DNA of 32,000 nt from Candidatus Iainarchaeum sp. (lineage in GTDB: Archaea > Iainarchaeota > Iainarchaeia > Iainarchaeales > JAZDEL01): NCBI GenBank assembly GCA_043808785.1, contig JAZDEL010000004.1:150001-182000 (forward strand), given 5' to 3'. The position numbers and the translations under genes are program-made. Numbering within the stretch: the stretch's first letter is position 1; the number at the start of each line of letters is the position of its first letter. This document shows positions 1 to 30,091 of the stretch, piece by piece. The notes beneath the pieces are model-generated. The model was not told the DNA's origin and searched no databases. It saw only the letters and a list, made by a program, of their open reading frames with translations.

Positions 1-85
1 AGGCTTGTATTTATGCGGGTTCACAGAACCCGCGACGTACGCGGCATGCGCGATCGCAAGCGCGCTTCAAGTCCCTCCGGAGGCT
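1..85 (+). tRNA. 3' terminal part of an intron-containing tRNA gene that begins upstream of the window (intron tail 1-65, then T-loop, T-stem and acceptor 3' strand 66-85)
   Basis: 66-72 TTCAAGT (T-loop), 73-77 CCCTC, 78-84 CGGAGGC, 85 T discriminator, then T-run 89-94. It is preceded by the hairpin GCGCG-ATCGCAAG-CGCGC (48-65), whose loop is identical to the hairpin that ends the tRNA-Tyr intron (2344-2361). The 5' part is not visible, so the identity is unknown. Confidence 0.4.
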
Positions 86-119
86 CTCTTTTTTAAATTT
101 TCAGAAAATTTGGCTCTCA

Positions 120-1993: not shown

Positions 1994-2043
1994 ATTAATA
2001 TATTTTAGCAGGGTAGGTTATTAGGAAGGGGAATGGATAATGC

Positions 2044-2106
2044 GTGCAGGCTAGGCGGGCTGAGCCAAAGCGAAGCCCCCCGGATCGTGCACGGATCCTT
2101 CCGTGC
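2044..2106 (+). ncRNA. conserved 63-nt structured leader module abutting tRNA +1 (copy A)
   Basis: Near-identical to 15061-15123: GTGCAGGCTAG, a hairpin with a GAGC..GCGAA loop, then CGGATCGTGCACGGATCCYTCCGTGC. It ends exactly at the tRNA-Tyr 5' end. A/T-rich boxes lie 25-45 nt upstream. Confidence 0.5.
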
Positions 2107-2397
2107 CCCGCCTTAGCATAGTAGCCAATGCGTTCGGCTGTAGTTGAGCCTTTCTTTTGCAAAGAAAGCCTCGGGAAAGAAAGGAATTTTGCTTCGCAAA
2201 ATTCAATCAGAATTCCCGCGGCTGAAAGGAAAGGCGATGCGAACCGTTCGGAACGGTTGTGTGCCATTTTTGATGGCATGGCGCATTTGCGAGAGGAAGG
2301 AAGGCTAGTTCCATCGAGCGAGAGCGAAGATGGAACGCGGCACATCCGATCGCAAGCGGATACCGAAAGATCCCCGGTGCAACTCCGGGAGGCGGGA
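2107..2397 (+). tRNA. tRNA-Tyr(GUA) with a ~218-nt intron at the canonical 37/38 position (intron about 2144-2361)
   Basis: Hand fold of all four arms:
- Acceptor CCCGCCT/AGGCGGG (C1-G72, the archaeal Tyr identity pair), with A73.
- D-stem GCAT/ATGC.
- Anticodon stem TTCGG/CCGAA, loop CT-GTA-G|A.
- T-stem CCCGG/CCGGG.
A T-run follows the gene (2398-2412).
Caveat: the T-loop is TGCAACT (G at position 55) and the D-loop AGTAGCCA lacks GG. Confidence 0.7.
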
Positions 2398-2712: not shown

Positions 2713-3690
2713 ATGGAAATGAAACTCATATTTGCCGCGGCCGCACTCGCGCTTGTCTTGCTTGTTGCTGGCTGCGCGGGCAACGGCGATGCATCCCAGG
2801 GCGGCGGCACGCAGGGCGGGGAGAAAAGCACGATAAAGGTTTCGGGCGCATGGGCCCTTTATCCCCTGATGGTAAAGTGGGGCGAGGAATACAACAAGGT
2901 TAACCCGAATGTGAAGGTGGAAGTTTCGGCAGGCGGCGCGGGAAAGGGAATGACCGATGCGCTTGCAGGGCTTGTTGAAATGGGCATGGTTTCAAGGTCA
3001 ATTTACCCTGAAGAAATCGAAAAGGGCGCATTCTATGTGACGGTTACCGAGGATGCGGTTGTTGCTGTTGTGAACAAGGGCAACCCCGTGCTCAATGAAC
3101 TCCTTGAAAAGGGAATGTCAAGGGAGGGGTTCGAAAAGATTTACATAAGCGGGGAAACAAAAACCTGGGGCGGGGTTATTGGCAAGCCCGAAATTACGGA
3201 CAAGATAAACGTGTACACGCGCTCCGATTCCGCGGGGGCGCCGGAAACATGGGCAGCATATTTCGGAAAAAAACAGGAGAACCTCCTCGGCATCGGCGTT
3301 TACGGAGACCCGGGGCTTTCGGAAGCTGTGAGGAAGGACAGGCTCGGCGTAGGCTACAACAACATAGGTTACGCATATGACATGAAAACAAAGAAGCAAA
3401 TCAGCGGGATTGCGGTTGTGCCTATAGACACAAGCGGGAACGGGAAGATAGATGCGGATGAGATGGTGTATGAAAACATAGACACGCTCACTGATGCTAT
3501 AGGCGCGAACAAATACCCGCATCCGCCTGCAAGGGGCCTGAACCTTGTGGTAAAGGAAAAATTCACCGGCGCGACAAAGGATTTCGTGAAGTGGATTCTC
3601 ACCGACGGCCAGCAATATGTGAAGGAGAGCGGGTATGTGCCTCTGCCCGGTGAATTCGTAAAGGAACAAATCAGGAAGCTCGGGGAGTGA
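2713..3690 (+). CDS. pstS: phosphate ABC transporter substrate-binding lipoprotein PstS
   Basis: Signal peptide with lipobox LLVAGC. PstS-like sequence (SGAWALYPL..., SAGGAGKG, TRSDSAG). SD GGAGG lies 7 nt upstream. First gene of the pstSCAB order. Confidence 0.9.
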   Translation: MEMKLIFAAAALALVLLVAGCAGNGDASQGGGTQGGEKSTIKVSGAWALYPLMVKWGEEYNKVNPNVKVEVSAGGAGKGMTDALAGLVEMGMVSRSIYPEEIEKGAFYVTVTEDAVVAVVNKGNPVLNELLEKGMSREGFEKIYISGETKTWGGVIGKPEITDKINVYTRSDSAGAPETWAAYFGKKQENLLGIGVYGDPGLSEAVRKDRLGVGYNNIGYAYDMKTKKQISGIAVVPIDTSGNGKIDADEMVYENIDTLTDAIGANKYPHPPARGLNLVVKEKFTGATKDFVKWILTDGQQYVKESGYVPLPGEFVKEQIRKLGE

Positions 3691-3717
3691 GGGCGCAGGG
3701 GAAAGGCGGAATTTCCA

Positions 3718-4617
3718 ATGGGCTGGCGCGAACCTAAGAACGGCATTGCGGAAAGGGCGATGTTTATCCTCACCGCACTTGCGGGGGCAATAATCATAAT
3801 CATTGCCGCGGTGCTGTTCTTCAAGGCGCTCCCGATACTTACATCAAAGCCGACAGGGGAACTGCTGTTCTCCCCGATATGGCAGCCTTGGGGCGGGCAG
3901 TTCGGGTTTTATGCTTTCATCCTCGGCACGCTCTGGGTTACCGCGCTTGCTATGCTGATTGCGGTCCCTGTTTCAATACTTACCGCTGTTTACCTTGCGG
4001 AATATGCCCCCGCAAGGGTCAGGGGAATAATAAAGCCGGCAATAGACCTGCTTGCCGCAATCCCCTCGGTTGTTTACGGATTATGGGGCGTGCTTGTTGT
4101 TGTGCCTTTCATAAGGGATGTGATTGCGCCGATTGCGGGAATTGAGACAACGGGCTACACAATACTTGCGGGCGGAATAGTTCTTGCGATAATGGTTTTT
4201 CCCGTAATAATTTCCGTTTCCACGGAGGTAATTGCCTCGGTTCCGCGGGAATTAAGGGAGGCGTCAAGGGCGCTTGGGGCGACAAAATGGGAAACAGTGA
4301 AATATGTAACCGTGCGAAGCATTTTTCCGGGGATTTTCGCTGCCATAATTCTCGGCTTCGGGCGCGCGATAGGGGAGACAATGGCGGTGCTCATGGTTGT
4401 CGGGAATGTTGCAAAGGTTCCCTCGGGAATTTTCGACCCGGCATATCCTTTGCCGGCGCTTATAGCGAACAATTACGGCGAGATGATGTCAATACCTATG
4501 TACGATTCCGCGCTGCTGCTTGCAGCGCTGATGCTGCTTGCGGGGGTTGTTATTTTCAGCGCTGTTGCGGAGATAACGCTTATGCGCTTCGGGGGGGGAA
4601 TGCATGCACGTGGATAA
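3718..4617 (+). CDS. pstC: phosphate ABC transporter permease PstC
   Basis: Six-TM permease with the EAA-type motif REASRALGATKWETV. Position in the operon. Confidence 0.9.
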   Translation: MGWREPKNGIAERAMFILTALAGAIIIIIAAVLFFKALPILTSKPTGELLFSPIWQPWGGQFGFYAFILGTLWVTALAMLIAVPVSILTAVYLAEYAPARVRGIIKPAIDLLAAIPSVVYGLWGVLVVVPFIRDVIAPIAGIETTGYTILAGGIVLAIMVFPVIISVSTEVIASVPRELREASRALGATKWETVKYVTVRSIFPGIFAAIILGFGRAIGETMAVLMVVGNVAKVPSGIFDPAYPLPALIANNYGEMMSIPMYDSALLLAALMLLAGVVIFSAVAEITLMRFGGGMHARG

Positions 4618-5458
4618 ACGCAGGCTCGAGGAAAATTTCTTCAGGGCGCTGATGCTCTGCTGCACGCTCCTTGTTGTGGGAAGCCTGTTTGCGGTGCTTG
4701 CGGTAATACTCATAAACGGCCTGCCTGCGCTGAGCATTGAAATGCTTACGCAAACCCCGAAGGGCGGATATTATTTGGGGAAAGAGGGCGGGATACTGAA
4801 TGCAATAATCGGCACGATTTATCTTGCAGGCGGGGCAACGGCTGCTGCAATAACGATAAGCCTGCCTGTCGCGCTTTACCTGAACATGCGCCCTGCGAAA
4901 TCAAGGTTCTCGAAATTCGTGAGGAACTCGCTCGACATACTCTGGAGCGTGCCCTCCATAGTTTACGGAATATTCGGATACACAATAATGATTTACATGG
5001 GAATGCGCGCCTCGCTCCTCGGCGGGATAATCGCGTTAACGCTCCTTGAACTGCCGATAATGATAAGGGCGATGGACGAAGTGATGCGGATTGTTCCGAT
5101 GAAACTTATGGAGGCGTCATACGCGCTCGGTGCCACAAAAATCAGGACAGCACTGGATGTGATTGCAAGGCAGGCAATGCCCGGCATAACAATGGCTGTG
5201 ATGCTTGCATTGGGCAGGGCAGCGGGTGATGCTGCATCCGTGCTTTTCACAGCGGGATACAGCGACAATATTCCCTCCTCGCTTTTTGAACCCGTGGCTT
5301 CGCTCCCGCTTGCGGTTTTCTTCCAGTTAGGCACGCCGTTCCCCGAGGTGCAGCAGAGGGCATATGCATCCGCAGCGGTGCTGCTTGTGATGATGCTCCT
5401 GCTGAGCGCGGGTGCGAGGGTTGCGACAAAAAGGTTTTCCGCATATGTTGTGAGGTGA
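4604..5458 (+). CDS. pstA: phosphate ABC transporter permease PstA
   Basis: Permease with MEASYALGATKIRT. Overlaps the pstC end by 14 nt. Confidence 0.9.
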   Translation: MHVDKRRLEENFFRALMLCCTLLVVGSLFAVLAVILINGLPALSIEMLTQTPKGGYYLGKEGGILNAIIGTIYLAGGATAAAITISLPVALYLNMRPAKSRFSKFVRNSLDILWSVPSIVYGIFGYTIMIYMGMRASLLGGIIALTLLELPIMIRAMDEVMRIVPMKLMEASYALGATKIRTALDVIARQAMPGITMAVMLALGRAAGDAASVLFTAGYSDNIPSSLFEPVASLPLAVFFQLGTPFPEVQQRAYASAAVLLVMMLLLSAGARVATKRFSAYVVR

Positions 5459-5464
5459 ACTTGA

Positions 5465-6262
5465 ATGAAGGCGAAAATAACGGCAGAGAACCTGAAGGTT
5501 TCCCGCGTGCCTGCGAAAATAAAAATAGAAAACCTGAATGTTTCCTACGAAAAGCACGCCGTGCTTAAGGGCGTAAGCCTGGAAATTCCCGAAAAGAAAA
5601 TAACGGTTATAATCGGCTCATCCGGCTGCGGGAAAACCACGCTGCTGAAAACCCTAAACAGGCTCACGGACATTGTTGAAGGGGTGAAAACCACGGGCAG
5701 GGTAAGGGTGGATGGCAAGGATGTTTTCGGGAACAATGCGGATGTGAACTCAATAAGGAAAAAAATGGGGTTCATATCGCAGACGCCCAACCCCCTGCCG
5801 ATGTCGATTTACGACAACATAACTTATGGGCCAAGGATTCACGGCACTAGGGGCAAGGGGGAACTTGATGCAATAGTTGAGCGCTGCCTGAGGAGCGCTG
5901 GGCTGTGGAACGAACTTAAGGGAAGGCTGAAGGAGCCTGCAACAAGGCTTTCGGTGGGGCAGCAGCAGCGGCTCTGCCTTGCAAGGGCGCTTGCAGTGGA
6001 GCCTGAAATAATACTCTGTGACGAGCCAACCTCCGCGCTTGACCCGATTTCAGCAAGGCATATCGAGGAGGAACTGCTCGCGCTGAAAAAGGATTACACA
6101 ATTGTTTTCGTGACGCACATACTCAGGCAGGCGAAGAGGCTTGCGGATTATGCGGTTTTCATGAACATTGGCGAGATTGTGGAGCAGGGGGATGCGAAAA
6201 AGGTTTTTGAAAAGCCTTCCGACCCGAGGACAAGGGCATACATTAAGGGGGAATTCAGCTGA
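5465..6262 (+). CDS. pstB: phosphate ABC transporter ATP-binding protein PstB
   Basis: Walker A GSSGCGKTT, signature LSVGQQQRL, Walker B ILCDEPTSALD, and PstB-type C-terminus TRAYIKGEF. Confidence 0.95.
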   Translation: MKAKITAENLKVSRVPAKIKIENLNVSYEKHAVLKGVSLEIPEKKITVIIGSSGCGKTTLLKTLNRLTDIVEGVKTTGRVRVDGKDVFGNNADVNSIRKKMGFISQTPNPLPMSIYDNITYGPRIHGTRGKGELDAIVERCLRSAGLWNELKGRLKEPATRLSVGQQQRLCLARALAVEPEIILCDEPTSALDPISARHIEEELLALKKDYTIVFVTHILRQAKRLADYAVFMNIGEIVEQGDAKKVFEKPSDPRTRAYIKGEFS

Positions 6263-6376: not shown

Positions 6377-6922
6377 ATGGGAAAGGCTTTTGCGTTTGGC
6401 GCGGTTCTTGCACTCGGGCTGATTGCGCTTTCATTCGGCTGCGCGCAGCAGCAGGGCAACGGGCAGATAGTTGGGGGGGATAAGGACGAGCACGGCTGCA
6501 TAGGTTCCGCGGGATACAGCTGGTGCGGGGCAAAGCAGGAATGCCTGCGCACATGGGAGGAAGAGTGCACTGCGCAGGGTTCGGGCACAGAAATAAATAA
6601 TTTCGAAGAGTGCGTTGCCGCGGGCAATCCCGTGATAGAAAGTTACCCGAGGAAGTGCAGCACGGGGGCGAAAACTTTCACGGAGGAGATCCCCGCACAG
6701 GCGCTGACTGAGGAAGAGGCGAGGGAAATTGCGCAGAACAGTTCGTGCATCGAGAACGGCGCGCTTAAGGAGAGCGCTTTCCGCAACGATAACACGAAAA
6801 CATGGTGGATTGATCTGGAGCCCGCGGAAGCGCAGGGTGGCTGCAGCCCCGCGTGCGTTGTGAGCGAGGAAAGCAAAACAGCGGAAACGAACTGGAGATG
6901 CACGGGGCTGGTGCCGGAATAG
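6377..6922 (+). CDS. secreted Cys-rich lipoprotein, unknown function
   Basis: Lipobox LSFGC. SD GGAAGGGGTG lies 5 nt before the ATG at 6377. Cys-rich motifs HGCIGSAGYSWCGAKQEC and FEECVAAGNPVIESYPRKC. Confidence 0.6.
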   Translation: MGKAFAFGAVLALGLIALSFGCAQQQGNGQIVGGDKDEHGCIGSAGYSWCGAKQECLRTWEEECTAQGSGTEINNFEECVAAGNPVIESYPRKCSTGAKTFTEEIPAQALTEEEAREIAQNSSCIENGALKESAFRNDNTKTWWIDLEPAEAQGGCSPACVVSEESKTAETNWRCTGLVPE

Positions 6923-6923
6923 G

Positions 6924-7793
6924 TCATGCTATTAACGCAAGCGCAACGCCTGCGGCAAGCGCGATTGCGGCGCCCGCATACTGGTGCGCGGATATTTTTT
7001 CCCGGTTTATGAGAACCCCGAGGAGAAGGCCGACAGTGGTGTAATTCACCATTATCGCCGCGACTATTGCGAGCTTGTTATCCACAAGCGCAACCGTGAA
7101 AAGCAGCCAGCCGATGGTGTCGAAGAAACCCGTCGCGAGCAGAAGGCGCGGGGAAGAGAAGAAGTTTTTCCTGAAACTGCCGAAGCCGCGGCGCAGAAAT
7201 ATTAGGAGGAGCGGGGCTGCGGCAAGCACGAGCCAGATGAACCAAACGCTGATTGCGGGGGAGGCCTGCCTTGCGCCGAGCGTCAGGAGATAGTTCATTA
7301 TTGCAAAGCTTGCAGCGCTCGCCACGGCAAGGAGGGCGCCTTTCTCAAGGTTTCCTGAAAAAATCGCCGCGGAAAGGGAGGAAACGGAAACAAGCAGCAC
7401 GCCCGCGAAAACAATTGCGATTGCGGCAAACTGCACAAGGGAAAGCGCCTCCCCGAGCAGGGTTGTGCTCAGGAGCACGGTAAGCGGCAGTTCAAGCGCG
7501 AAAACGACCATTACAATTGAAAGTTTTCCCTCCCCCAGCGCCCTGAAAGTAATCATGGAACTTGCAAGGGCAAACAGGCCGAGGAATAGGAGCAGCGCAA
7601 GGTTCTGCGGCACGAGAAGGAGGTGCATATCCTGCAGCGCGAGAGGGAGCAGCATTATAGTGCCCGTTACCGCTATGAAAGCGAGCGCGTGCACCCTGCC
7701 TACCCTGCGCACGCTGCGCTGTATAAGGAAGTCCCCGAGGCCCCATGCGAGCATGGCGCCGAATGCCGCGAGAATGCCGAAATCGAAAGCCAT
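6924..7793 (-). CDS. EamA/DMT-family transporter
   Basis: Ten predicted TM helices in two EamA-like halves. Start MAFDFGIL (7793) is preferred because the shared A/T box ATTAATAT (7842-7849) is too close to the ATG at 7838. Confidence 0.8.
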   Translation of the reverse strand: MAFDFGILAAFGAMLAWGLGDFLIQRSVRRVGRVHALAFIAVTGTIMLLPLALQDMHLLLVPQNLALLLFLGLFALASSMITFRALGEGKLSIVMVVFALELPLTVLLSTTLLGEALSLVQFAAIAIVFAGVLLVSVSSLSAAIFSGNLEKGALLAVASAASFAIMNYLLTLGARQASPAISVWFIWLVLAAAPLLLIFLRRGFGSFRKNFFSSPRLLLATGFFDTIGWLLFTVALVDNKLAIVAAIMVNYTTVGLLLGVLINREKISAHQYAGAAIALAAGVALALIA

Positions 7794-15027: not shown

Positions 15028-15060
15028 CATTAAAAACCTATTTCCCCCAATTTCTATTCA

Positions 15061-15123
15061 GTGCAGGCTAGTTCGGGTGAGCCCCGAGGCGAACCCGTAC
15101 GGATCGTGCACGGATCCCTCCGT
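15061..15123 (+). ncRNA. conserved 63-nt structured leader module abutting tRNA +1 (copy B)
   Basis: Aligns along its whole length with 2044-2106, including an identical 18-mer CGGATCGTGCACGGATCC. ATTAAAAACC lies about 27 nt upstream of its first G. Confidence 0.5.
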
Positions 15124-15258
15124 GCCCCGGTAGTCTAGCGGTTAGGATGCGGCCCTGTCGGAACTTTTGGGGGCGCGGGGTTCTTGAAACCCCGCTTCCG
15201 AAAAGTTCACAAAAGTTGCGGTGAGGCTGCGACTCGGGTTCGAATCCCGGCCGGGGCG
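15124..15258 (+). tRNA. tRNA-Asp(GUC) with a 63-nt intron at 37/38 (15161-15223)
   Basis: Hand fold of all four arms:
- Acceptor GCCCCGG/CCGGGGC, with G73.
- D-arm GTCT-AGCGGTTA-GGAT.
- Anticodon stem CGGCC/GGCTG, loop CT-GTC-G|A.
- T-arm TCGGG-TTCGAAT-CCCGG. Confidence 0.8.
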
Positions 15259-15383
15259 TTGGCCCATCGAACGAAGCGAGATGGGCCCTGGCCTGATACT
15301 TATTTTCGCAAACCTTTTGGAAGCGGGGGCGAGGCAAACGAGCCCCCGCGCTCAAAAAGGTTTTTCGAATCCCGGCCGGGGCG
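15259..15383 (+). repeat. 105-nt structured insert followed by an exact second copy of the tRNA-Asp 3' end (T54 to discriminator)
   Basis: TTCGAATCCCGGCCGGGGCG occurs at 15239-15258 and again at 15364-15383. The insert contains hairpin GGCCCATC-GAACGAAGCGA-GATGGGCC (15261-15287) and long hairpin 15311-15362. Confidence 0.75.
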
Positions 15384-15456
15384 TAACCTTTCAGCATGGC
15401 GCTTTGCTTTATTAACCCCCAATATTTAAATACCAGTTAGGCGCAATAAAAGGTTC

Positions 15457-18135
15457 ATGCTGCGCGGGTTAACCCTGATAGCCCTTATGGGCGCTGTTGC
15501 ACTTCTTTTCGGGTGCGCGGGGCAGATGGGAACGCCGGAAGAAATCGCGATGCAAAACGCGACTGTGAAGAATTTCATGCAGCAGTACCCGAACGCAACC
15601 GTGCAGATAAACAGGCATGGTGCCGAGGCATTTGCCGGCATAGCGGATGAAATACGGAAGGACTGCCAGAACCCTGACCTGCAGGCAAAGGAATATTACA
15701 AGGTTGTTGTGAACGACGCGGCAAGCGGGGATTACATAAAGGCGTGGATAGATTGGGAGGGCAAGAAACTTGAGTGCATGTACAGGAAGGGGCAGAAGGT
15801 TTCGGAAACCGCGGAAACCGGAAAGGGCACGGGGGAAAAGGCTGCGGAGAAATGCACCGCAGGCTGGGCATGCAAGGATGCGATGCACAAGGCATACAGG
15901 AACGAGGACTGCAATTGGGATGGGGAAAAGTTCTGCGAATTCGGCTGCGGCGCAGGAAGGTGCTTGGCGAGCGATGAGGGAGGCGCAACTGCTGGCGCGG
16001 GAGGCGGAAGCCAGCAGGGCGGGGAAAATGCAGCCGACCTTTGTGCCGGCATTGTTTGCCCGAACACGTGCGAGGGCAGCGTCAGGAAATTCAACGGCAC
16101 GTGCGTCAACGGCGTGTGCAATTATTCCGTAACCGCGTGCGGGCAGGGCTGCGAGAACGGCGCTTGCAAGGGGAACGCGTGCGCGGGCATTGTTTGCCCG
16201 AACACGTGCGAGGGCGATTTCATAAACAAGGGAAAGTGTGTTGAAGGCGCGTGCACATCGGAGCAGATACAGTGCCCTTACGGCTGCGAGAACGGCGGAT
16301 GCAGGGATGCGCCCGCGGAGCAGGCAAACGAGCAGAACCAGGAGCAGAACGCGGGGGAACAGCAGAACCAGGAGCAAAATCAGGAGCAGAACCAGGGACA
16401 GGAGTGCGCGGGAGGCTGCCCTGACAAGTGCGAGGGGAACCTGAGAACGCATGCAGGGCAGTGCGTTAACGGCGAGTGCCAGTATGCGCAGGAGCAGTGC
16501 GCGAACGGATGCGAGAACGGCGTTTGCAAGGCGGCATCGGGCGGGGCAGCGTATTCGTGCGGCTGGACATGGCCGCAGCAGATAAAGGAAAATGGCGTGT
16601 TGAAATGGGCGTGCCCGTCCTCGAGGCCTTACTGCAAGGGAGGCACCACAAACTGCTGCCAGTACAACGCCACGCAGGGGCATTATGATTGTATCGATTG
16701 CGTGCAGGGCGCGTGCACCAATCTGGGCGGAAGTTCTGGCAGTTCCGGCAGCGACCCGTGCGCGAATGTCACGTGCCCGAACAAGTGCGTAAACACGACA
16801 AGGTATTACAACGGCAAGTGCAACAGCAACGGGCAGTGCGATTATTCGCTGCAGGCGTGCCCGAACGGGTGCACTAACGGCACGTGCAACAACGACCCCT
16901 GTGCGGGGGTTAGCTGCCCGAATACGTGCGCCAGCACATACAGCCTTAAATACAACGGGCAGTGCTCGAACGGCGTGTGCCAGTACACGACCAAGGCATG
17001 CTTCTTCGGCTGCTCAAACAACGCGTGCAGCCAGCCGCCGGTGGGCACGATATTCGTGACAAGCACGACATATAATGCGAGTCTTGGCGGGCTTGCCGGG
17101 GCGGACGCGAAATGCACTGCGAGGGCGAGCGCCGGAAGCCTAACCGGCACGTGGAAGGCGCTTATAAGCAACACCGTGACAAACGCCAAGGACAGGATTC
17201 CGGACACCGTACACAAGGGGCTGGACGGCCTGACTATAGCGAACAATGAGGCGGATTTGTTCGACGGCACTATTGCGAACAGAATATACTTTACTGAGAT
17301 GGGCACGGCGTATTCGGGCGCACCGGATTATGTGTGGACCGGATTTGAAACAGGCGGCATAGCCACGGGCGTGAACTGCGGGAACTGGGCAAGCACTTCG
17401 GGAAACACATACCCCGGAAGCGCCACAGGAACCGGCAGCGGCTGGATGAAATCGGGGGTGCAGAGGGCGTGCTCCACAACAGCAAGGCTTTATTGCATAA
17501 AGACCACGGCGGGATGGGACAAGTGCGAGGGCGTTACATGCCCGAACACGTGCGACGGCAGCTACAGGGAATACAACGGGCAGTGCCAGGGAATTAACGG
17601 GATTTGCAAGTACACAGCACAGCCGTGCGCATTCGGGTGCACAAACGGCGCGTGCAACACCGCGCCTGTCGGGGCAATCTTCAGGACAAGCACGACATAT
17701 ACAGGCAGCCTCGGCGGCATGGCGGGGGCGGATATGAAGTGCCAGCAGAGGGCGAATGCGGCAAGCCTTGCAGGAGTATGGAAGGCGGTAATAAGCGACA
17801 GCCTGAAGAACGCGGGCGACAGCGGCAGGATTCCGGATACTGTTTACAAAAGGATGGACGGGCTTGTTATTGCGAACAACAAGGCGGATTTGTTCGACGG
17901 CACTGTTGCGAATGCGCCGAAGCTGAGCGAGAACGGGCTGTATGTCAGCGACCTTGCGTGGACGGGATTCACAACAGGCGGAACTCCCACCGGAGTGAAC
18001 TGCGGCAACTGGCAGAGCACATCGGGCAATGCATACCCCGGGCACGCGTCATATACGGATGCGAAATGGTTTAACTGGAATGTCAGCAAGGCGTGCAGCA
18101 CGGCCGCGGGGCTGTACTGCGTAAGGTATTCCTGA
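15457..18135 (+). CDS. large secreted lipoprotein: PepSY-like N-domain, about 7 tandem 6-Cys modules, N/Q/E linker, two endostatin/DUF1554-like domains
   Basis: Lipobox LLFGC and a leaderless ATG 25 nt after ATATTTAAATAC. Repeated module CxG(I/V)xCPNxCxG(x9-11)CxxGxCxY(x5-6)CxxGCxNGxC. Two copies of IF(V/R)TSTTY..SLGG.AGAD.KC...W(K)A(L/V)IS...VWTGF..GG..TGVNCGNW...ACST...LYC. Confidence 0.9.
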   Translation: MLRGLTLIALMGAVALLFGCAGQMGTPEEIAMQNATVKNFMQQYPNATVQINRHGAEAFAGIADEIRKDCQNPDLQAKEYYKVVVNDAASGDYIKAWIDWEGKKLECMYRKGQKVSETAETGKGTGEKAAEKCTAGWACKDAMHKAYRNEDCNWDGEKFCEFGCGAGRCLASDEGGATAGAGGGSQQGGENAADLCAGIVCPNTCEGSVRKFNGTCVNGVCNYSVTACGQGCENGACKGNACAGIVCPNTCEGDFINKGKCVEGACTSEQIQCPYGCENGGCRDAPAEQANEQNQEQNAGEQQNQEQNQEQNQGQECAGGCPDKCEGNLRTHAGQCVNGECQYAQEQCANGCENGVCKAASGGAAYSCGWTWPQQIKENGVLKWACPSSRPYCKGGTTNCCQYNATQGHYDCIDCVQGACTNLGGSSGSSGSDPCANVTCPNKCVNTTRYYNGKCNSNGQCDYSLQACPNGCTNGTCNNDPCAGVSCPNTCASTYSLKYNGQCSNGVCQYTTKACFFGCSNNACSQPPVGTIFVTSTTYNASLGGLAGADAKCTARASAGSLTGTWKALISNTVTNAKDRIPDTVHKGLDGLTIANNEADLFDGTIANRIYFTEMGTAYSGAPDYVWTGFETGGIATGVNCGNWASTSGNTYPGSATGTGSGWMKSGVQRACSTTARLYCIKTTAGWDKCEGVTCPNTCDGSYREYNGQCQGINGICKYTAQPCAFGCTNGACNTAPVGAIFRTSTTYTGSLGGMAGADMKCQQRANAASLAGVWKAVISDSLKNAGDSGRIPDTVYKRMDGLVIANNKADLFDGTVANAPKLSENGLYVSDLAWTGFTTGGTPTGVNCGNWQSTSGNAYPGHASYTDAKWFNWNVSKACSTAAGLYCVRYS

Positions 18136-19144: not shown

Positions 19145-19243
19145 GGCGCAGGCATGCGCAAAACAGGCGGAACTTTTCGCCTTTGCCGCGGGAAAGCCGA
19201 ACCAGTTAAATATAAATAGTGGTTTTTACCTTAAAGTGTGGAC

Positions 19244-20476
19244 ATGAAAGGCAAAATTACGCCGTTGGGATTTGCAATTGCCGTTGTGCTCCTCTTCGGC
19301 TGCACAATGCAGGTCCAATCCCCCGAGGAACTGATAAATGCCAACGGAACCGCGCAGGCATTCATGGCTGCGCACCCTAACGCGCAGGTGAGTTACACTT
19401 ACATAAGCATGGCGGCATTCGGCAATGTAAGTGCGCAGATTGCCTCCGACTGCAAAGGGGTTGTTGCCCCGGGGGAATTTTACAAGGCGGACATTTACGA
19501 CATGGCGACAGGGCAGAGGCTCGTGATGTGGCTTGACTGGGAAAAGAGGGCGATGCACTGCCTTACTGAGAAACGGGACAAGGGCATAACGCCCTCGGCG
19601 AAGTGCGAACCCGGCTGGAAGTGCATTGACGGCACGCACCGCGCATACAGGAACGAGGACTGCTCATGGAAATACGAAACGTTCTGTGAGTTCGGGTGCG
19701 ATAAGGGAGACTGTGCAAAAGACACGTGCGCAAAGGTTACGTGTGCGGATTACTGTGTAGGGAAGACTCTTTTCAGCAACGGGAAGTGCGCGGAAGGGGC
19801 GTGCACATATGAACGTACGGAGTGCGAAGGCATATGCGAGGGTGCGCAGTGCACGGAGGATAAATGCATAGGGGTCAGTTGCGATGACAAGTGCGACGGA
19901 AGCGTGAGAAAATACGGCGGCGAGTGCGCAAGCAGGGTTTGCTCATATTCCGATGAGAAGTGCGAGCTCGGCTGCTACATGGGGCGGTGCCTGCAGAAGG
20001 GCACAATGTTTGTGACATCGCAGGAATGGAACGGCAATCTCGGCGGGATAAGCGGCGCGGATGCGAAGTGCCAGGCCGCGGCATCGGCGGCAAAGCTCCA
20101 GGGAAAATGGAGGGCGCTGGTAAGCGACAAGGACCACTCGGCAAAAAGCTGGCTGCCGGACAGTGCCTACACAAAACTTGACGGAACCATGGTTGCAAAG
20201 AACAGGGCTGACCTGCTTGACGGCACAATCCTCAGCCCGATAAACATTGACGAATTCGGCAAGGCTGCATCTGGCTTCAGGGTGTGGACAGGCACCTCGA
20301 TAACAGGCACCCCATATGACGGGCCGCTGAGCGGTTACTGCGATAATTGGGTAAGCTGGAATGTCAACAAGGTCGGCGGAGTTGGAAATAAAAACAGCAC
20401 CGACAGCGGCTGGATAAATTACGGCGCCGAACTATGCGAAAGGACCGGAAACCTGTACTGTATGCTTTTTTCTTAG
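19244..20476 (+). CDS. secreted lipoprotein, short paralog of 15457-18135 (N-domain, 2-3 Cys modules, one endostatin/DUF1554-like domain)
   Basis: Lipobox LLFGC. Collinear similarity to the 892-aa protein (HRAYRNEDCSWKYETFCEFGC; MFVTSQEWNGNLGGISGADAKC...WRALVS...VWTGT...YCDNW...LYC). Confidence 0.85.
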   Translation: MKGKITPLGFAIAVVLLFGCTMQVQSPEELINANGTAQAFMAAHPNAQVSYTYISMAAFGNVSAQIASDCKGVVAPGEFYKADIYDMATGQRLVMWLDWEKRAMHCLTEKRDKGITPSAKCEPGWKCIDGTHRAYRNEDCSWKYETFCEFGCDKGDCAKDTCAKVTCADYCVGKTLFSNGKCAEGACTYERTECEGICEGAQCTEDKCIGVSCDDKCDGSVRKYGGECASRVCSYSDEKCELGCYMGRCLQKGTMFVTSQEWNGNLGGISGADAKCQAAASAAKLQGKWRALVSDKDHSAKSWLPDSAYTKLDGTMVAKNRADLLDGTILSPINIDEFGKAASGFRVWTGTSITGTPYDGPLSGYCDNWVSWNVNKVGGVGNKNSTDSGWINYGAELCERTGNLYCMLFS

Positions 20477-25900: not shown

Positions 25901-26041
25901 GAAACAATAAGGCGCACGGTAAATTTAAGCATTTCCGTTTCGGGCAGGCTTTCGGCTTTTTCCGCCAACCAAACTTTTCAGGGAACCCTGCACAGGCTTC
26001 CGCGGGCGCAATAAAAACCTTTTGCCTGCACATTTTATCGT

Positions 26042-26115
26042 GCCCCCGTAGTATAGCCTGGACAGTACTCGGGCCTCCGGAGCCCGTGACCGGGGTTCAA
26101 ATCCCCGCGGGGGCG
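26042..26115 (+). tRNA. tRNA-Arg(CCG), intron-less
   Basis: GCCCCCG-TA-GTAT-AGCCTGGACA-GTAC-T-CGGGC-CTCCGGA-GCCCG-TGAC-CGGGG-TTCAAAT-CCCCG-CGGGGGC-G. AATAAAAACC lies about 27 nt upstream. Confidence 0.95.
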
Positions 26116-26230
26116 CTTCGGAAAAAACAAAACAAAAAACGAACCGACGGTTCGCCGGGTTTTTGGGTTTTGGTTTTTCGGGTTTTGTTTTTCGGATTTA
26201 TTTTTGGTTTTGCCGCTTGTTTTTTTGCCT
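26116..26230 (+). terminator. hairpin plus multiple G-punctuated T-tracts downstream of tRNA-Arg
   Basis: GAACC-GAC-GGTTC hairpin (26141-53), flanked by A-rich (26121-40) and T-rich (26160-26228) runs. T5-T7 tracts are archaeal termination signals. Confidence 0.45.
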
Positions 26231-30036: not shown

Positions 30037-30091
30037 CAAAACCACCTCCAAATTTTCGGTTTTTTGTTTTGGTTTTTGTTTTTTTATTTTT

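What the first reader, a model, noticed from the sequence alone, without database searches (positions are those of the whole stretch)
2044..2106. Conserved 63-nt GC-rich leader placed directly in front of two different tRNAs (Tyr and Asp)
2044-2106 and 15061-15123 align end to end. Both contain GTGCAGGCTAG, a hairpin, then CGGATCGTGCACGGATCC(T/C)TCCGTGC. An 18-mer is identical in both. Each copy stops at or within 2 nt of tRNA position +1.

A/T-rich promoter-like boxes lie about 27-45 nt upstream of the module rather than of the tRNA, so the module is probably transcribed as a 5' leader.

The last 18 nt can form GCACGG-ATCCYT-CCGTGC, touching +1. tRNA leaders are normally short and unconserved. 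A conserved structured leader therefore suggests one of three things: a co-transcribed small RNA, a processing signal (for example 5' maturation that does not rely on a canonical RNase P substrate), or a mobile module that targets tRNA genes.
Basis: seen in the sequence. Interest (0 to 1): 0.8.

Follow-up and report, generated by a model that had tools for sequence, protein, structure and literature searches.

The report
Structured leader cassette on archaeal tRNAs
Two tRNA genes of an uncultured DPANN archaeon carry the same folded 63-base stretch directly in front of them; it looks like a transcribed, intron-like insertion cassette that spreads among tRNA genes, not a general tRNA processing signal.

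Summary
Copies at 2044-2106 and 15061-15125 share three parts. First, an 11-nt 5' box. Second, a hairpin with a tandem G.A motif whose outer stem differs at 8 of 14 positions yet stays paired. Third, a 26-nt 3' block (25/26 identical) ending in a 7-bp hairpin. That hairpin stops at -1 of tRNA-Tyr and overlaps +1/+2 of tRNA-Asp.

TATA-like boxes lie upstream of the module, so it is most likely transcribed as a leader. The host is a Diapherotrites/Iainarchaeota MAG. No Rfam family matches.

It is not a general leader. tRNA-Arg in the window lacks it, and so do 13 tRNA calls in about 130 kb of related contigs. The only other full copy found, in another Iainarchaeota MAG, abuts the 3' end of tRNA-Phe on the opposite strand.

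Related cassettes sit elsewhere in tRNA loci: at the 3' end of the tRNA-Tyr intron, at the window start, and as hairpins in a 104-nt insertion flanked by a 21-nt duplicate of the tRNA-Asp 3' end.

Best reading (about 0.5): one subfamily of structured, duplicative cassettes that colonise tRNA exon boundaries and are removed by normal processing (RNase P here). A dedicated RNA function is not excluded.

The parts
1994..2007 (+). A/T-rich TATA-like box upstream of the tRNA-Tyr module. Its centre is about 43 nt before the module start, which predicts a start site near 2028.
   Evidence: Read from the sequence; A/T 8-mer profile. Promoter function is inferred, not shown.
2044..2106 (+). Leader module, copy 1. 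5' box GTGCAGGCTAG 2044-2054. Hairpin 1 2054-2081: outer stem 2054-2061 / 2074-2081, tandem GA at 2062-2063 and 2072-2073. Invariant 3' block 2081-2106. Hairpin 2: GCACGGA 2089-2095, loop 2096-2099, TCCGTGC 2100-2106. Ends at -1 of tRNA-Tyr.
   Evidence: (87.6 bits).
2107..2397 (+). tRNA-Tyr(GTA). Exon 1 2107-2143, intron 2144-2361 (218 nt, position 37/38), exon 2 2362-2397. C1-G72 and A73.
   Evidence: ARAGORN with introns.
2302..2361 (+). Intron-type cassette at the 3' end of the tRNA-Tyr intron. AGGCTAG 2302-2308, GA-bracketed hairpin 2309-2335, ACGCGGCA 2335-2342, terminal hairpin ATCCG-ATCGCAAG-CGGAT 2344-2361. It ends exactly at the 3' splice site.
   Evidence: Weak full-length hit of model R1, 12.9 bits. 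Its hairpin is homologous to a hairpin in the tRNA-Asp 3' insertion, 0/2000 shuffles. Its 3' part is homologous to window 39-62, 0/3000 shuffles.
1..65 (+). Second intron-type cassette, cut by the window edge. AGGCTTG 1-7, hairpin 15-33, ACGCGGCA 39-46, terminal hairpin GCGCG-ATCGCAAG-CGCGC 48-65. It is followed by TTCAAGT CCCTC CGGAGGC T (66-85) and a T-run. That stretch is probably the T-loop to 3' end of a tRNA whose 5' part lies outside the window.
   Evidence: The tRNA exon is read by eye; Rfam gave no hit on this short piece.
15028..15039 (+). TATA-like box (cATTAAAAACc) upstream of the tRNA-Asp module. Its centre is 28 nt before the first module base.
   Evidence: The distance equals the TATA-to-+1 distance at the module-less tRNA-Arg.
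15061..15125 (+). Leader module, copy 2. 5' box 15061-15071. Hairpin 1 15071-15100, with GA at 15079-15080 and 15091-15092. 3' block 15100-15125. Hairpin 2 15108-15125, whose last two bases are tRNA-Asp +1/+2.
   Evidence: (92.1 bits).
15124..15258 (+). tRNA-Asp(GTC) with a 63-nt intron, 15161-15223, at position 37/38.
   Evidence: Rfam RF00005, 45 bits; ARAGORN. A full bulge-helix-bulge motif (CUGU/GCGG central helix, AACUUUU/AAAAGUU outer helix) was drawn by eye from the sequence.
15260..15363 (+). 104-nt insertion after tRNA-Asp. It is flanked by exact 21-nt direct repeats of the tRNA 3' end (15239-15259 and 15364-15384). It holds two GA-bracketed hairpins (15261-15287, 15323-15349) related to hairpin 1 of the module and to the tRNA-Tyr intron hairpin.
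   Evidence: (14.1 bits).
26042..26116 (+). tRNA-Arg(CCG), used as a comparison. It has no intron and no module. Its TATA-like box (26010-26017) is centred 28 nt before +1.

Best explanation
The 63-65-nt module is a transcribed 5' leader cassette. It is one subfamily of small structured cassettes with a common layout: an AGGCUAG box, then a hairpin of variable sequence, then a terminal hairpin whose last base touches an exon boundary. These cassettes have been duplicated or transposed among tRNA genes of this Iainarchaeota lineage. That is the same kind of process described for archaeal tRNA introns and for scars left by integrated mobile elements at tRNA genes.

At tRNA-Asp the cassette looks like an insertion placed exactly between the transcription start and +1 of a gene that would otherwise have almost no leader.

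Shown: the sequence, the fold with compensatory changes, the positions, the related copies and the patchy distribution.

Inferred: that the cassette is transcribed from the upstream TATA-like box. Also inferred is that it is cut off at +1 by RNase P, which reads the tRNA body and not the leader, while the intron-type copies leave with the intron through the splicing endonuclease.

Unexplained: the invariant 26-nt 3' block. It probably binds a factor, either one needed for spread of the cassette or an RNA-binding protein.
For: (1) In module-less tRNA genes of this clade the A/T box is centred 20-30 nt before +1. At tRNA-Asp the same distance (28 nt) separates it from the module start, so the module looks like a precise insertion at the start/+1 junction.

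(2) The module is not general. tRNA-Arg in the window lacks it. So do 13 tRNA calls (Arg, Met, Lys, Phe, Ala; some are the same locus recovered in two assemblies) in about 130 kb of related contigs. The exact 18-mer hits one archaeal genome among 185,579 species representatives. The other 28 hits are G+C-rich bacteria that score 27 bits or less against model R1, against 81 bits for the archaeal copy. There are no true hits in JGI metagenomes, IMG/VR, phage or plasmid collections.

(3) That one other copy (L014 6886-6953) has the identical 27-nt 3' part and a hairpin 1 with different but still paired bases. It lies 2 nt from the 3' end of a tRNA-Phe on the opposite strand. Compared with a relative (L044) it sits at the edge of an insertion between tRNA-Phe and lysS.

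(4) Related cassettes abut other exon boundaries: the 3' end of the tRNA-Tyr intron and window 1-65. GA-hairpin relatives lie in a 104-nt insertion flanked by a 21-nt duplicate of the tRNA-Asp 3' end, a classic integration signature. The two best non-self hits of model R1 in 64 kb searched both fall inside these two tRNA loci.

(5) The module-to-+1 register differs by 2 nt between Tyr and Asp, so the cleavage site must be set by the tRNA.

(6) Precedents exist. Similar intron sequences in different tRNAs indicate intron transposition (PMC4033280). Mobile-element integration has been proposed to create introns and tRNA fragments (PMC3293823). G+C-rich leaders precede tRNA halves (PMC3218864).
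Against: Only three full copies are known, and the full genome could not be scanned. No terminal inverted repeats, no target duplication and no recombinase or transposase gene were found around the leader copies.

All cassette copies in the window are in the tRNA sense orientation. The 3' block is invariant between genomes. Both facts fit a selected RNA function just as well.

Homology between the leader type and the intron type rests on a weak model hit (12.9 bits) plus shared layout and short shared words, not on a strong alignment.

The opposite-strand L014 junction comes from a short-read MAG about 1 kb from a contig end, so misassembly cannot be ruled out. No mobilising mechanism is identified.
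Confidence: 0.5

Rival explanations
1. The module is a dedicated functional RNA. It could be a cis-acting leader that helps fold, stabilise or hand over long-intron pre-tRNAs. Or it could be a small RNA co-transcribed with the tRNA and released by RNase P cleavage at +1, for example an RNP RNA whose GA-bracketed apical loop binds an L7Ae-type protein.
For: Hairpin 1 shows compensatory changes, while the 5' box, the GAGCC...GGCGA core and the 26-nt 3' block are invariant. All copies in the window are in the sense orientation. Both module-bearing tRNAs have long introns and the module-less tRNA-Arg has none. The leader folds on its own without disturbing the predicted tRNA fold. The overall shape resembles an H/ACA hairpin: closing stem GUGCA/UGCAC, internal loop with invariant strands, variable upper stem, GA...GA apical motif (comparison with H/ACA from my own knowledge).
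Against: The module is absent from most tRNAs and most related genomes examined. The L014 copy is not followed by a sense tRNA. No Rfam family matches, including C/D and H/ACA families. No ACA/ANA box lies at the required distance, and there are no C or D boxes. The tandem G.A sits in a continuous helix with no 3-nt bulge, so it is not a canonical kink-turn.
Confidence: 0.25
2. The module is a DNA-level recombination site, or the arm of an att site, left by integrative elements that target tRNA genes. The overlapping near-palindromes GGATC-GTGCAC-GGATCC and GCACGGA-TCCY-TCCGTGC, and the CGGATC repeats spaced 11 bp apart, would be protein-binding sites.
For: The 3' block contains two overlapping near-palindromes and a direct repeat with an 11-bp period (read). 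The module abuts tRNA boundaries in either orientation. A 21-nt duplicate of the tRNA-Asp 3' end flanks a small insertion carrying related hairpins. tRNA genes are known integration sites in archaea (PMC3218864, PMC3293823).
Against: No duplicated tRNA segment flanks the leader copies or the L014 copy. No integrase gene is in the window. The conserved tandem G.A motif is meaningful only on one strand, which points to a folded single strand (RNA or ssDNA) and not to duplex DNA. No match in viral or plasmid collections.
Confidence: 0.12
3. The module itself makes the tRNA 5' end without RNase P, either as a self-cleaving ribozyme or as a substrate for the splicing endonuclease.
For: tRNA genes of this clade appear almost leaderless, as in the RNase P-free Nanoarchaeum (PMC10100707). 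A 63-nt structured leader touching +1 is an awkward RNase P substrate.
Against: The cleavage site is shifted by 2 nt relative to the module between Tyr and Asp. No known ribozyme family matches. No leader/trailer bulge-helix-bulge can be drawn, because the Tyr trailer is a T-run. RNase P proteins are reported in Diapherotrites (PMC4919917).
Confidence: 0.04
4. A recent neutral segmental duplication or gene conversion copied one tRNA's upstream region to another, with no selection on it.
For: There are two copies 13 kb apart on one contig.
Against: Divergence is highly uneven: 8/14 stem positions differ against 2/47 elsewhere, p = 3.7e-5, and the stem changes are compensatory. The same 3' block is present in a different genome with no flanking similarity.
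Confidence: 0.03

Closest known systems
Transposed bulge-helix-bulge introns of archaeal tRNA genes (Thermoproteales; Fujishima et al. 2010, as summarised in PMC4033280)
   Same: Related short non-coding sequences occur in different tRNA genes of one lineage. They are removed from the transcript by normal processing, and their distribution among genomes is patchy. The intron-type cassettes here (2302-2361 and 1-65) are such a case.
   Different: The leader copies lie outside the tRNA, at -1/+1. They have no bulge-helix-bulge and would need RNase P, not the splicing endonuclease. One copy lies on the opposite strand at a tRNA 3' end.
G+C-rich leaders of split or trans-spliced tRNA halves (Nanoarchaeum equitans; Aeropyrum pernix tRNA-Asp with a promoter inside the 'intron', PMC3218864)
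   Same: A structured G+C-rich leader lies between a promoter and an exon start. The tRNA-Tyr intron here has a T5 run and a TATA-like box about 30 nt before its cassette, which resembles the tandem split arrangement.
   Different: Here the leader precedes complete tRNAs. No complementary partner sequence was found in the window and no bulge-helix-bulge forms at the junction. The same leader serves two different tRNAs.
Integration scars of mobile elements at tRNA genes (Caldiarchaeum subterraneum model, PMC3293823)
   Same: The tRNA-Asp locus carries a 21-nt duplicate of its own 3' end flanking an insertion that holds hairpins related to the module. In L014 the module lies at the edge of an insertion next to tRNA-Phe.
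   Different: The insertion is only 104 nt. No recombinase gene is present, and no tRNA duplicate flanks the leader module itself.
Archaeal H/ACA guide sRNA with a K-loop (own knowledge; no Rfam hit)
   Same: A single hairpin with a closing stem, an internal loop with invariant strands, an upper stem of variable sequence and a GA...GA motif at the apex.
   Different: No ACA box 14-16 nt from the internal loop. The upper stem is longer. An extra 3' hairpin is present. The G.A pairs lie in a continuous helix. No target was identified.
Small RNAs whose 3' end is made by RNase P cleavage of a downstream tRNA or tRNA-like structure (for example MALAT1/mascRNA; own knowledge)
   Same: A structured RNA lies directly 5' of a tRNA and would be released by the same cut that matures the tRNA.
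   Different: There is no evidence that the released leader is stable or functional. The L014 copy has no sense tRNA downstream.

Membership tests
Archaeal bulge-helix-bulge intron / split-tRNA leader | A bulge-helix-bulge motif (two 3-nt bulges separated by 4 bp) at the junction with the exon | tested here: not met
   For the leader copies, no 4-bp leader/trailer helix can form next to the acceptor stem. The Tyr trailer is UUUUCUUAUUUUUU and the Asp trailer is unrelated. By contrast, the anticodon-loop introns of both tRNAs do show the CUGU/GCGG central helix (read by eye).
Archaeal bulge-helix-bulge intron / split-tRNA leader | A complementary partner sequence on a second transcript (for split tRNAs) | tested here: inconclusive
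   No reverse-complement copy of the 18-mer in the window at up to 3 mismatches. The rest of the genome could not be searched.
H/ACA guide sRNA | An ACA (ANA) box 14-16 nt 3' of the pseudouridylation pocket | tested here: not met
   Positions 14-16 after the upper stem read AUC, and no ANA triplet follows the closing stem. No H/ACA family appears in Rfam scans at E up to 10.
H/ACA guide sRNA | A hairpin with an internal pocket and a K-turn or K-loop in the upper part | tested here: inconclusive
   A closing stem, an internal loop, an upper stem and a GA...GA apical motif are present. The G.A pairs are flanked by Watson-Crick pairs on both sides, with no 3-nt bulge.
C/D box sRNA | A C box (RUGAUGA) and a D box (CUGA) near the two ends | tested here: not met
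   No RUGAUGA in any copy. CUGA is present only in the Tyr copy. No Rfam hit.
MITE / IS-derived miniature element | Terminal inverted repeats and target-site duplication | tested here: not met
   The ends GTGCAGG... and ...CCGTGC are not inverted repeats of each other. The flanks of the two copies share no duplication.
MITE / IS-derived miniature element | Many copies, including at non-tRNA sites | tested here: inconclusive
   In 32 kb there are only two full copies plus weak relatives, all inside tRNA loci.
Integrative-element att site at a tRNA gene | A direct repeat of part of the tRNA flanking the inserted DNA | tested here: not met
   Not met for the leader module or for L014: no partial tRNA duplicates. 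It is met for the separate 104-nt insertion after tRNA-Asp, which has a 21-nt exact repeat.
Integrative-element att site at a tRNA gene | A recombinase gene in the element | tested here: not met
   No integrase, transposase or homing-endonuclease domain in the window ORFs scanned against Pfam.
Known self-cleaving ribozymes | A match to a ribozyme family and a fixed cleavage site relative to the ribozyme core | tested here: not met
   No Rfam hit. tRNA +1 is shifted by 2 nt relative to the module between the two copies.
Kink-turn / K-loop (L7Ae-binding motif) | Tandem sheared G.A pairs next to a 3-nt bulge or a terminal loop | tested here: inconclusive
   Tandem GA/GA is conserved in six hairpins. 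The inner 2-3 bp (GCC/GGC) can close the loop and leave no bulge. Protein binding cannot be tested here.

The most novel reading that the evidence does not exclude
The cassettes are the still-active mobile unit behind the gain of archaeal tRNA introns and the splitting of tRNA genes. This would be a structured element, with conserved end blocks and a structure-only middle hairpin, that lands precisely at tRNA processing sites: the 5' end, the 3' splice site and the 3' end. Depending on where it lands it becomes a leader, an intron end or a flank insertion. The tRNA-Tyr gene, with its internal T-run and TATA-like box, would be caught on the way to a tandem split gene.
Probability: 0.2. Interest if true: 0.75.

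Novelty: new variant of a known kind. Interest (0 to 1): 0.5.

Why it matters
How archaeal tRNA genes acquire introns, and how they become split or permuted, is an old open question. The evidence so far is mostly indirect: similar introns in different tRNAs, and fragments next to integrated elements.

This locus shows several things side by side in 32 kb. One cassette family sits in two leaders and at the ends of two introns. Related hairpins sit in a 3' insertion with an att-like duplication. A cross-genome copy lies at a tRNA 3' end. That gives a concrete sequence to follow in genomes, populations and transcriptomes.

If the module instead turns out to be a stable RNA released by RNase P, it would be a new tRNA-linked small RNA in DPANN archaea.

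Either way it is a caution for annotation. ARAGORN run without its intron option missed both tRNAs. Rfam at its gathering threshold missed tRNA-Tyr, and Rfam has no family for the module.

Tried and rejected
(1) Known RNA family. Rfam at gathering and at E up to 10 gave nothing for the module in the window or in L014.

(2) Coding. The 2-nt indel in the hairpin loop puts the two conserved blocks in different frames in the two copies, so a peptide is excluded (read).

(3) Wider homologues. An exact 18-mer scan of GTDB species genomes gave one true hit (L014) and 28 chance hits in G+C-rich bacteria. A 21-mer scan of JGI metagenomes gave 10 chance hits in bacterial coding sequence. IMG/VR, phage and plasmid searches gave nothing real; L049 is a chance hit in a phage gene.

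(4) Reaching the rest of the source contig failed. Its proteins (MFH1224956.1, MFH1224938.1) are not in the contig index.

(5) Synteny walks. Homologues of DUF1554, PstS and LysRS gave about 130 kb of archaeal contigs. These are mostly Iainarchaeota; L048 looks unrelated. They hold 13 tRNA calls and no module.

(6) Leader pairing with intron, trailer or mature tRNA. Duplex energies are no better than shuffles. The one exception is the Tyr trailer, and that rests on an 8-mer (TTCCGTGC) that lies beyond the T-run terminator and occurs four times in the window. Whole pre-tRNA folds keep the leader separate.

(7) Hammerhead, group II domain V, integron attC, IS200/IS605 ends and omega-RNA-like guide ideas were considered from the sequence and dropped, because core motifs or associated genes are missing.

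(8) A generic GA-bracketed hairpin pattern is not enriched window-wide (17 hits against 11.6 expected). Only the five clean ones inside the two tRNA loci are meaningful.

Full report
WHAT IS THERE

The window comes from an uncultured DPANN archaeon. Its proteins are identical to NCBI entries from a 'Candidatus Diapherotrites archaeon' MAG, on a contig of 200,738 nt. Archaeal marker domains are present.

ARAGORN as run by the tRNA tool, without its intron option, finds only tRNA-Arg(CCG) at 26042-26116. With introns allowed it also finds tRNA-Tyr(GTA) at 2107-2397, with a 218-nt intron at 37/38, and tRNA-Asp(GTC) with a 63-nt intron. Both have good cloverleaves. Rfam confirms tRNA-Asp at 15124-15258.

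The 18-mer CGGATCGTGCACGGATCC occurs only at these two places even with 3 mismatches allowed; none are expected by chance. Copy 1 ends at -1 of tRNA-Tyr. The last GC of copy 2 is +1/+2 of tRNA-Asp.

ANATOMY

The module has three parts.
- A 5' box, GTGCAGGCTAG, 11/11 identical.
- Hairpin 1. Its 7-8-bp outer stem is only 6/14 identical between the two copies but stays paired. Inside it is an invariant GA-GCC...GGC-GA core, that is, tandem G.A pairs around a short apical stem-loop.
- An invariant 26-nt block, 25/26 identical, ending in hairpin 2: GCACGGA-UCCY-UCCGUGC.

Across three copies, four pairs of hairpin 1 carry compensatory double changes. Hairpin 2 never varies, so it has no covariation evidence for or against. 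The contrast between the variable stem and the constant rest is significant (Fisher p = 3.7e-5). This rules out a neutral recent duplication. It shows selection on a fold in hairpin 1 and on sequence elsewhere.

The tandem G.A motif has meaning only on the + strand. A 2-nt indel shifts the reading frame between the conserved blocks, so the module does not encode a peptide. No Rfam family matches at any threshold.

IS IT A LEADER?

In module-less tRNA genes of this clade the A/T-rich box is centred 20-30 nt before +1. This holds for tRNA-Arg here and for Arg and Phe in related contigs, and it implies almost no leader.

At tRNA-Asp the box (cATTAAAAACc, very like the tRNA-Arg box) is centred 28 nt before the first base of the module. 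At tRNA-Tyr it is about 43 nt before. The module is therefore most likely transcribed. At tRNA-Asp it looks like 63 nt dropped exactly between the start site and +1. This rests on promoter geometry only; no transcript data exist.

The module-to-+1 register differs by 2 nt between the two genes. The mature 5' end must therefore be set by the tRNA body, as RNase P does, and not by the module. No leader/trailer bulge-helix-bulge can be drawn, and the Tyr trailer is a T-run. All five RNase P proteins have been reported in Diapherotrites (PMC4919917). Whole-precursor folds keep the leader as a separate domain.

DISTRIBUTION

A covariance model built from the copies (R1) scores the two window copies at 92 and 88 bits.

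The exact 18-mer hits 29 loci among 185,579 species-representative genomes. Only one is archaeal: a 'Candidatus Iainarchaeum' MAG, locus L014, at 81 bits. The other 28 are G+C-rich bacteria scoring 27 bits or less, and that score is owed to the selected word itself. JGI metagenomes gave only chance hits in bacterial coding sequence. IMG/VR, phage and plasmid collections gave nothing real.

About 130 kb of archaeal contigs, mostly Iainarchaeota, were reached through homologues of DUF1554, PstS and LysRS. They hold 13 tRNA calls (Arg, Met, Lys, Phe, Ala; some are the same locus in two assemblies) and no module. The module is therefore rare and patchy. It is not a clade-wide feature of tRNA genes.

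THE THIRD COPY CHANGES THE PICTURE

In L014 the module (6886-6953, + strand) has the identical 27-nt 3' part and a hairpin 1 with yet another, still paired, stem. What follows after 2 nt is the reverse complement of the 3' end of a tRNA-Phe(GAA). That tRNA has its own A/T box on the far side. It also carries two insertions: 27 nt in the anticodon loop by the Rfam alignment, and about 36 nt after position 9 by eye.

So the module there is convergent with a tRNA and is not its leader. A relative (L044) has tRNA-Phe 74 nt from lysS. In L014 the module plus an EamA transporter gene lie between them. The caveat is that this junction is in a short-read MAG about 1 kb from a contig end.

RELATIVES INSIDE THE WINDOW

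The best non-self hits of R1 both fall inside the two tRNA loci.

One hit is 2294-2361, the 3' end of the tRNA-Tyr intron. It reads AGGCTAG, then a GA-bracketed hairpin, then ACGCGGCA, then a hairpin AUCCG-AUCGCAAG-CGGAU that ends exactly at the 3' splice site. The heptamer AGGCTAG occurs three times on the + strand, each time in one of these cassettes.

The 3' part of that intron cassette recurs at window 39-62 (0/3000 shuffles) with a compensated stem, GCGCG/CGCGC. It has the same layout from AGGCTTG at position 1. It is followed by what reads as the T-loop, T-stem and acceptor 3' strand of a tRNA plus a T-run. That would be a second intron-type cassette in a different tRNA at a different intron position. 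The exon assignment is by eye, and Rfam gave no hit on so short a piece.

The intron hairpin is also homologous to a hairpin in the 104 nt that follow tRNA-Asp (0/2000 shuffles). Hairpin 1 of the Tyr leader resembles the second hairpin there (12/2000). That 104-nt segment is flanked by an exact 21-nt duplicate of the tRNA-Asp 3' end, the usual mark of integration at a tRNA gene.

A generic GA-bracketed hairpin pattern is not enriched across the window. The five clean instances all lie in these two loci and all on the tRNA strand.

INTERPRETATION

The shared layout is a short box, a hairpin conserved in shape but not in sequence, and a terminal hairpin whose last base touches an exon boundary. 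It is found at two tRNA 5' ends, two intron 3' ends and, in another genome, a tRNA 3' end. Distribution is patchy, and an att-like scar in the same locus carries related hairpins.

I read the leader module as one subfamily of duplicative, intron-like or mobile-element-derived cassettes. They settle at tRNA processing sites, where they do no harm because RNase P or the splicing endonuclease removes them. Precedents are intron transposition among tRNAs in Thermoproteales (PMC4033280), intron gain through integration of a mobile element in Caldiarchaeum (PMC3293823), and G+C-rich leaders or internal promoters in split tRNA genes (PMC3218864).

What this reading does not explain is the invariance of the 26-nt block, or how the cassette moves. 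There are no terminal inverted repeats, no target duplication and no recombinase in the window. I put it at about 0.5.

RIVALS

- A dedicated RNA function, about 0.25. This would be a folding or stabilising leader for long-intron precursors, or a small RNA released by RNase P, possibly an L7Ae-type RNP. It fits the selection pattern and the sense orientation. It does not fit the L014 context or the rarity. The module looks like an H/ACA hairpin but lacks the ACA box, so it is not a member of that family.
- A duplex-DNA recombination site, about 0.12. This fits the near-palindromes and the 11-bp-spaced CGGATC repeats, but not the strand-specific G.A motif.
- RNase-P-independent maturation, about 0.04. 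This is disfavoured by the 2-nt register shift.
- Neutral duplication. This is rejected by the uneven divergence.

VERDICT

It is a new variant of known kinds (transposed tRNA introns, split-tRNA leaders, integration scars). The interest is moderate: a tangible handle on how archaeal tRNA genes get disrupted. That is tempered by the small number of copies and by the lack of transcript and whole-genome data.

Noticed in passing
window 15239-15384: An exact 21-nt direct repeat (TTCGAATCCCGGCCGGGGCGT) of the tRNA-Asp 3' end flanks a 104-nt insertion that contains the likely T-run terminator and two GA-bracketed hairpins. It looks like an att-type integration scar of a very small or decayed element.
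   Followed up: partly
window 1-95: The window opens inside a structured non-coding stretch. An intron-type cassette (1-65) is followed by TTCAAGT-CCCTC-CGGAGGC-T and a T-run. This is probably the 3' exon of a fourth tRNA with a non-canonical intron near position 53/54, and its 5' part lies outside the window.
   Followed up: partly
window 2144-2361: The 218-nt tRNA-Tyr intron contains a T5 run inside a hairpin (about 2262-2279). This doubles as a TATA-like box about 30 nt upstream of the AGGCTAG cassette. It could be an internal terminator plus promoter, which would make this a tandem split tRNA gene like Aeropyrum pernix tRNA-Asp.
   Followed up: no
window 2107-2397: tRNA-Tyr has an unusual D-loop (AGUAGCCA, no GG) and T-loop (UGCAACU instead of UUCRAAU). 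It keeps the archaeal C1-G72 identity pair.
   Followed up: no
window 2099-2106 and 2410-2417: The 8-mer TTCCGTGC that closes the module recurs 13 nt after tRNA-Tyr, beyond the T-run. It could pair with the leader over 9 bp. But this 8-mer occurs four times on the + strand of the window, so it may be chance.
   Followed up: partly
L014 7128-7868 and L053 6111-6977: A free-standing ORF with a LAGLIDADG-like domain lies directly upstream of tRNA-Phe in two Iainarchaeota contigs. In both, tRNA-Phe carries non-canonical insertions: a D-loop intron in L053, and position 9/10 plus the anticodon loop in L014. A relative without the ORF (L051) has an uninterrupted tRNA-Phe.
   Followed up: partly
L014 6856-6867 and 6901-6912: A 12-nt piece of hairpin 1 (GTGCTGCCGAGC) is repeated about 45 nt upstream of the L014 module. 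A TATA-like box lies about 110 nt upstream, so the L014 RNA, if made, may be about 150 nt long.
   Followed up: no
window 15457-18135 and 19238-20476: Two large secreted-type proteins have cysteine-rich tandem repeats and C-terminal DUF1554 domains. DNA repeat families D1-D7 lie inside the first one.
   Followed up: no
window 26120-26226 and 30052-30091: Runs of A-rich and then T/G-rich short repeats (TTTTGGGTTTTGG...) follow tRNA-Arg and recur near 30.06 kb. They form long inverted repeats with each other (I13, I14, I20).
   Followed up: no
window 2713-6262: The pstSCAB phosphate-transport operon directly downstream of tRNA-Tyr has its closest homologues (67-68% identity) on contigs of about 1 Mb from other lineages. 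The one contig fetched (L048) shares no flanking genes with the window. This may indicate horizontal acquisition next to the tRNA.
   Followed up: partly
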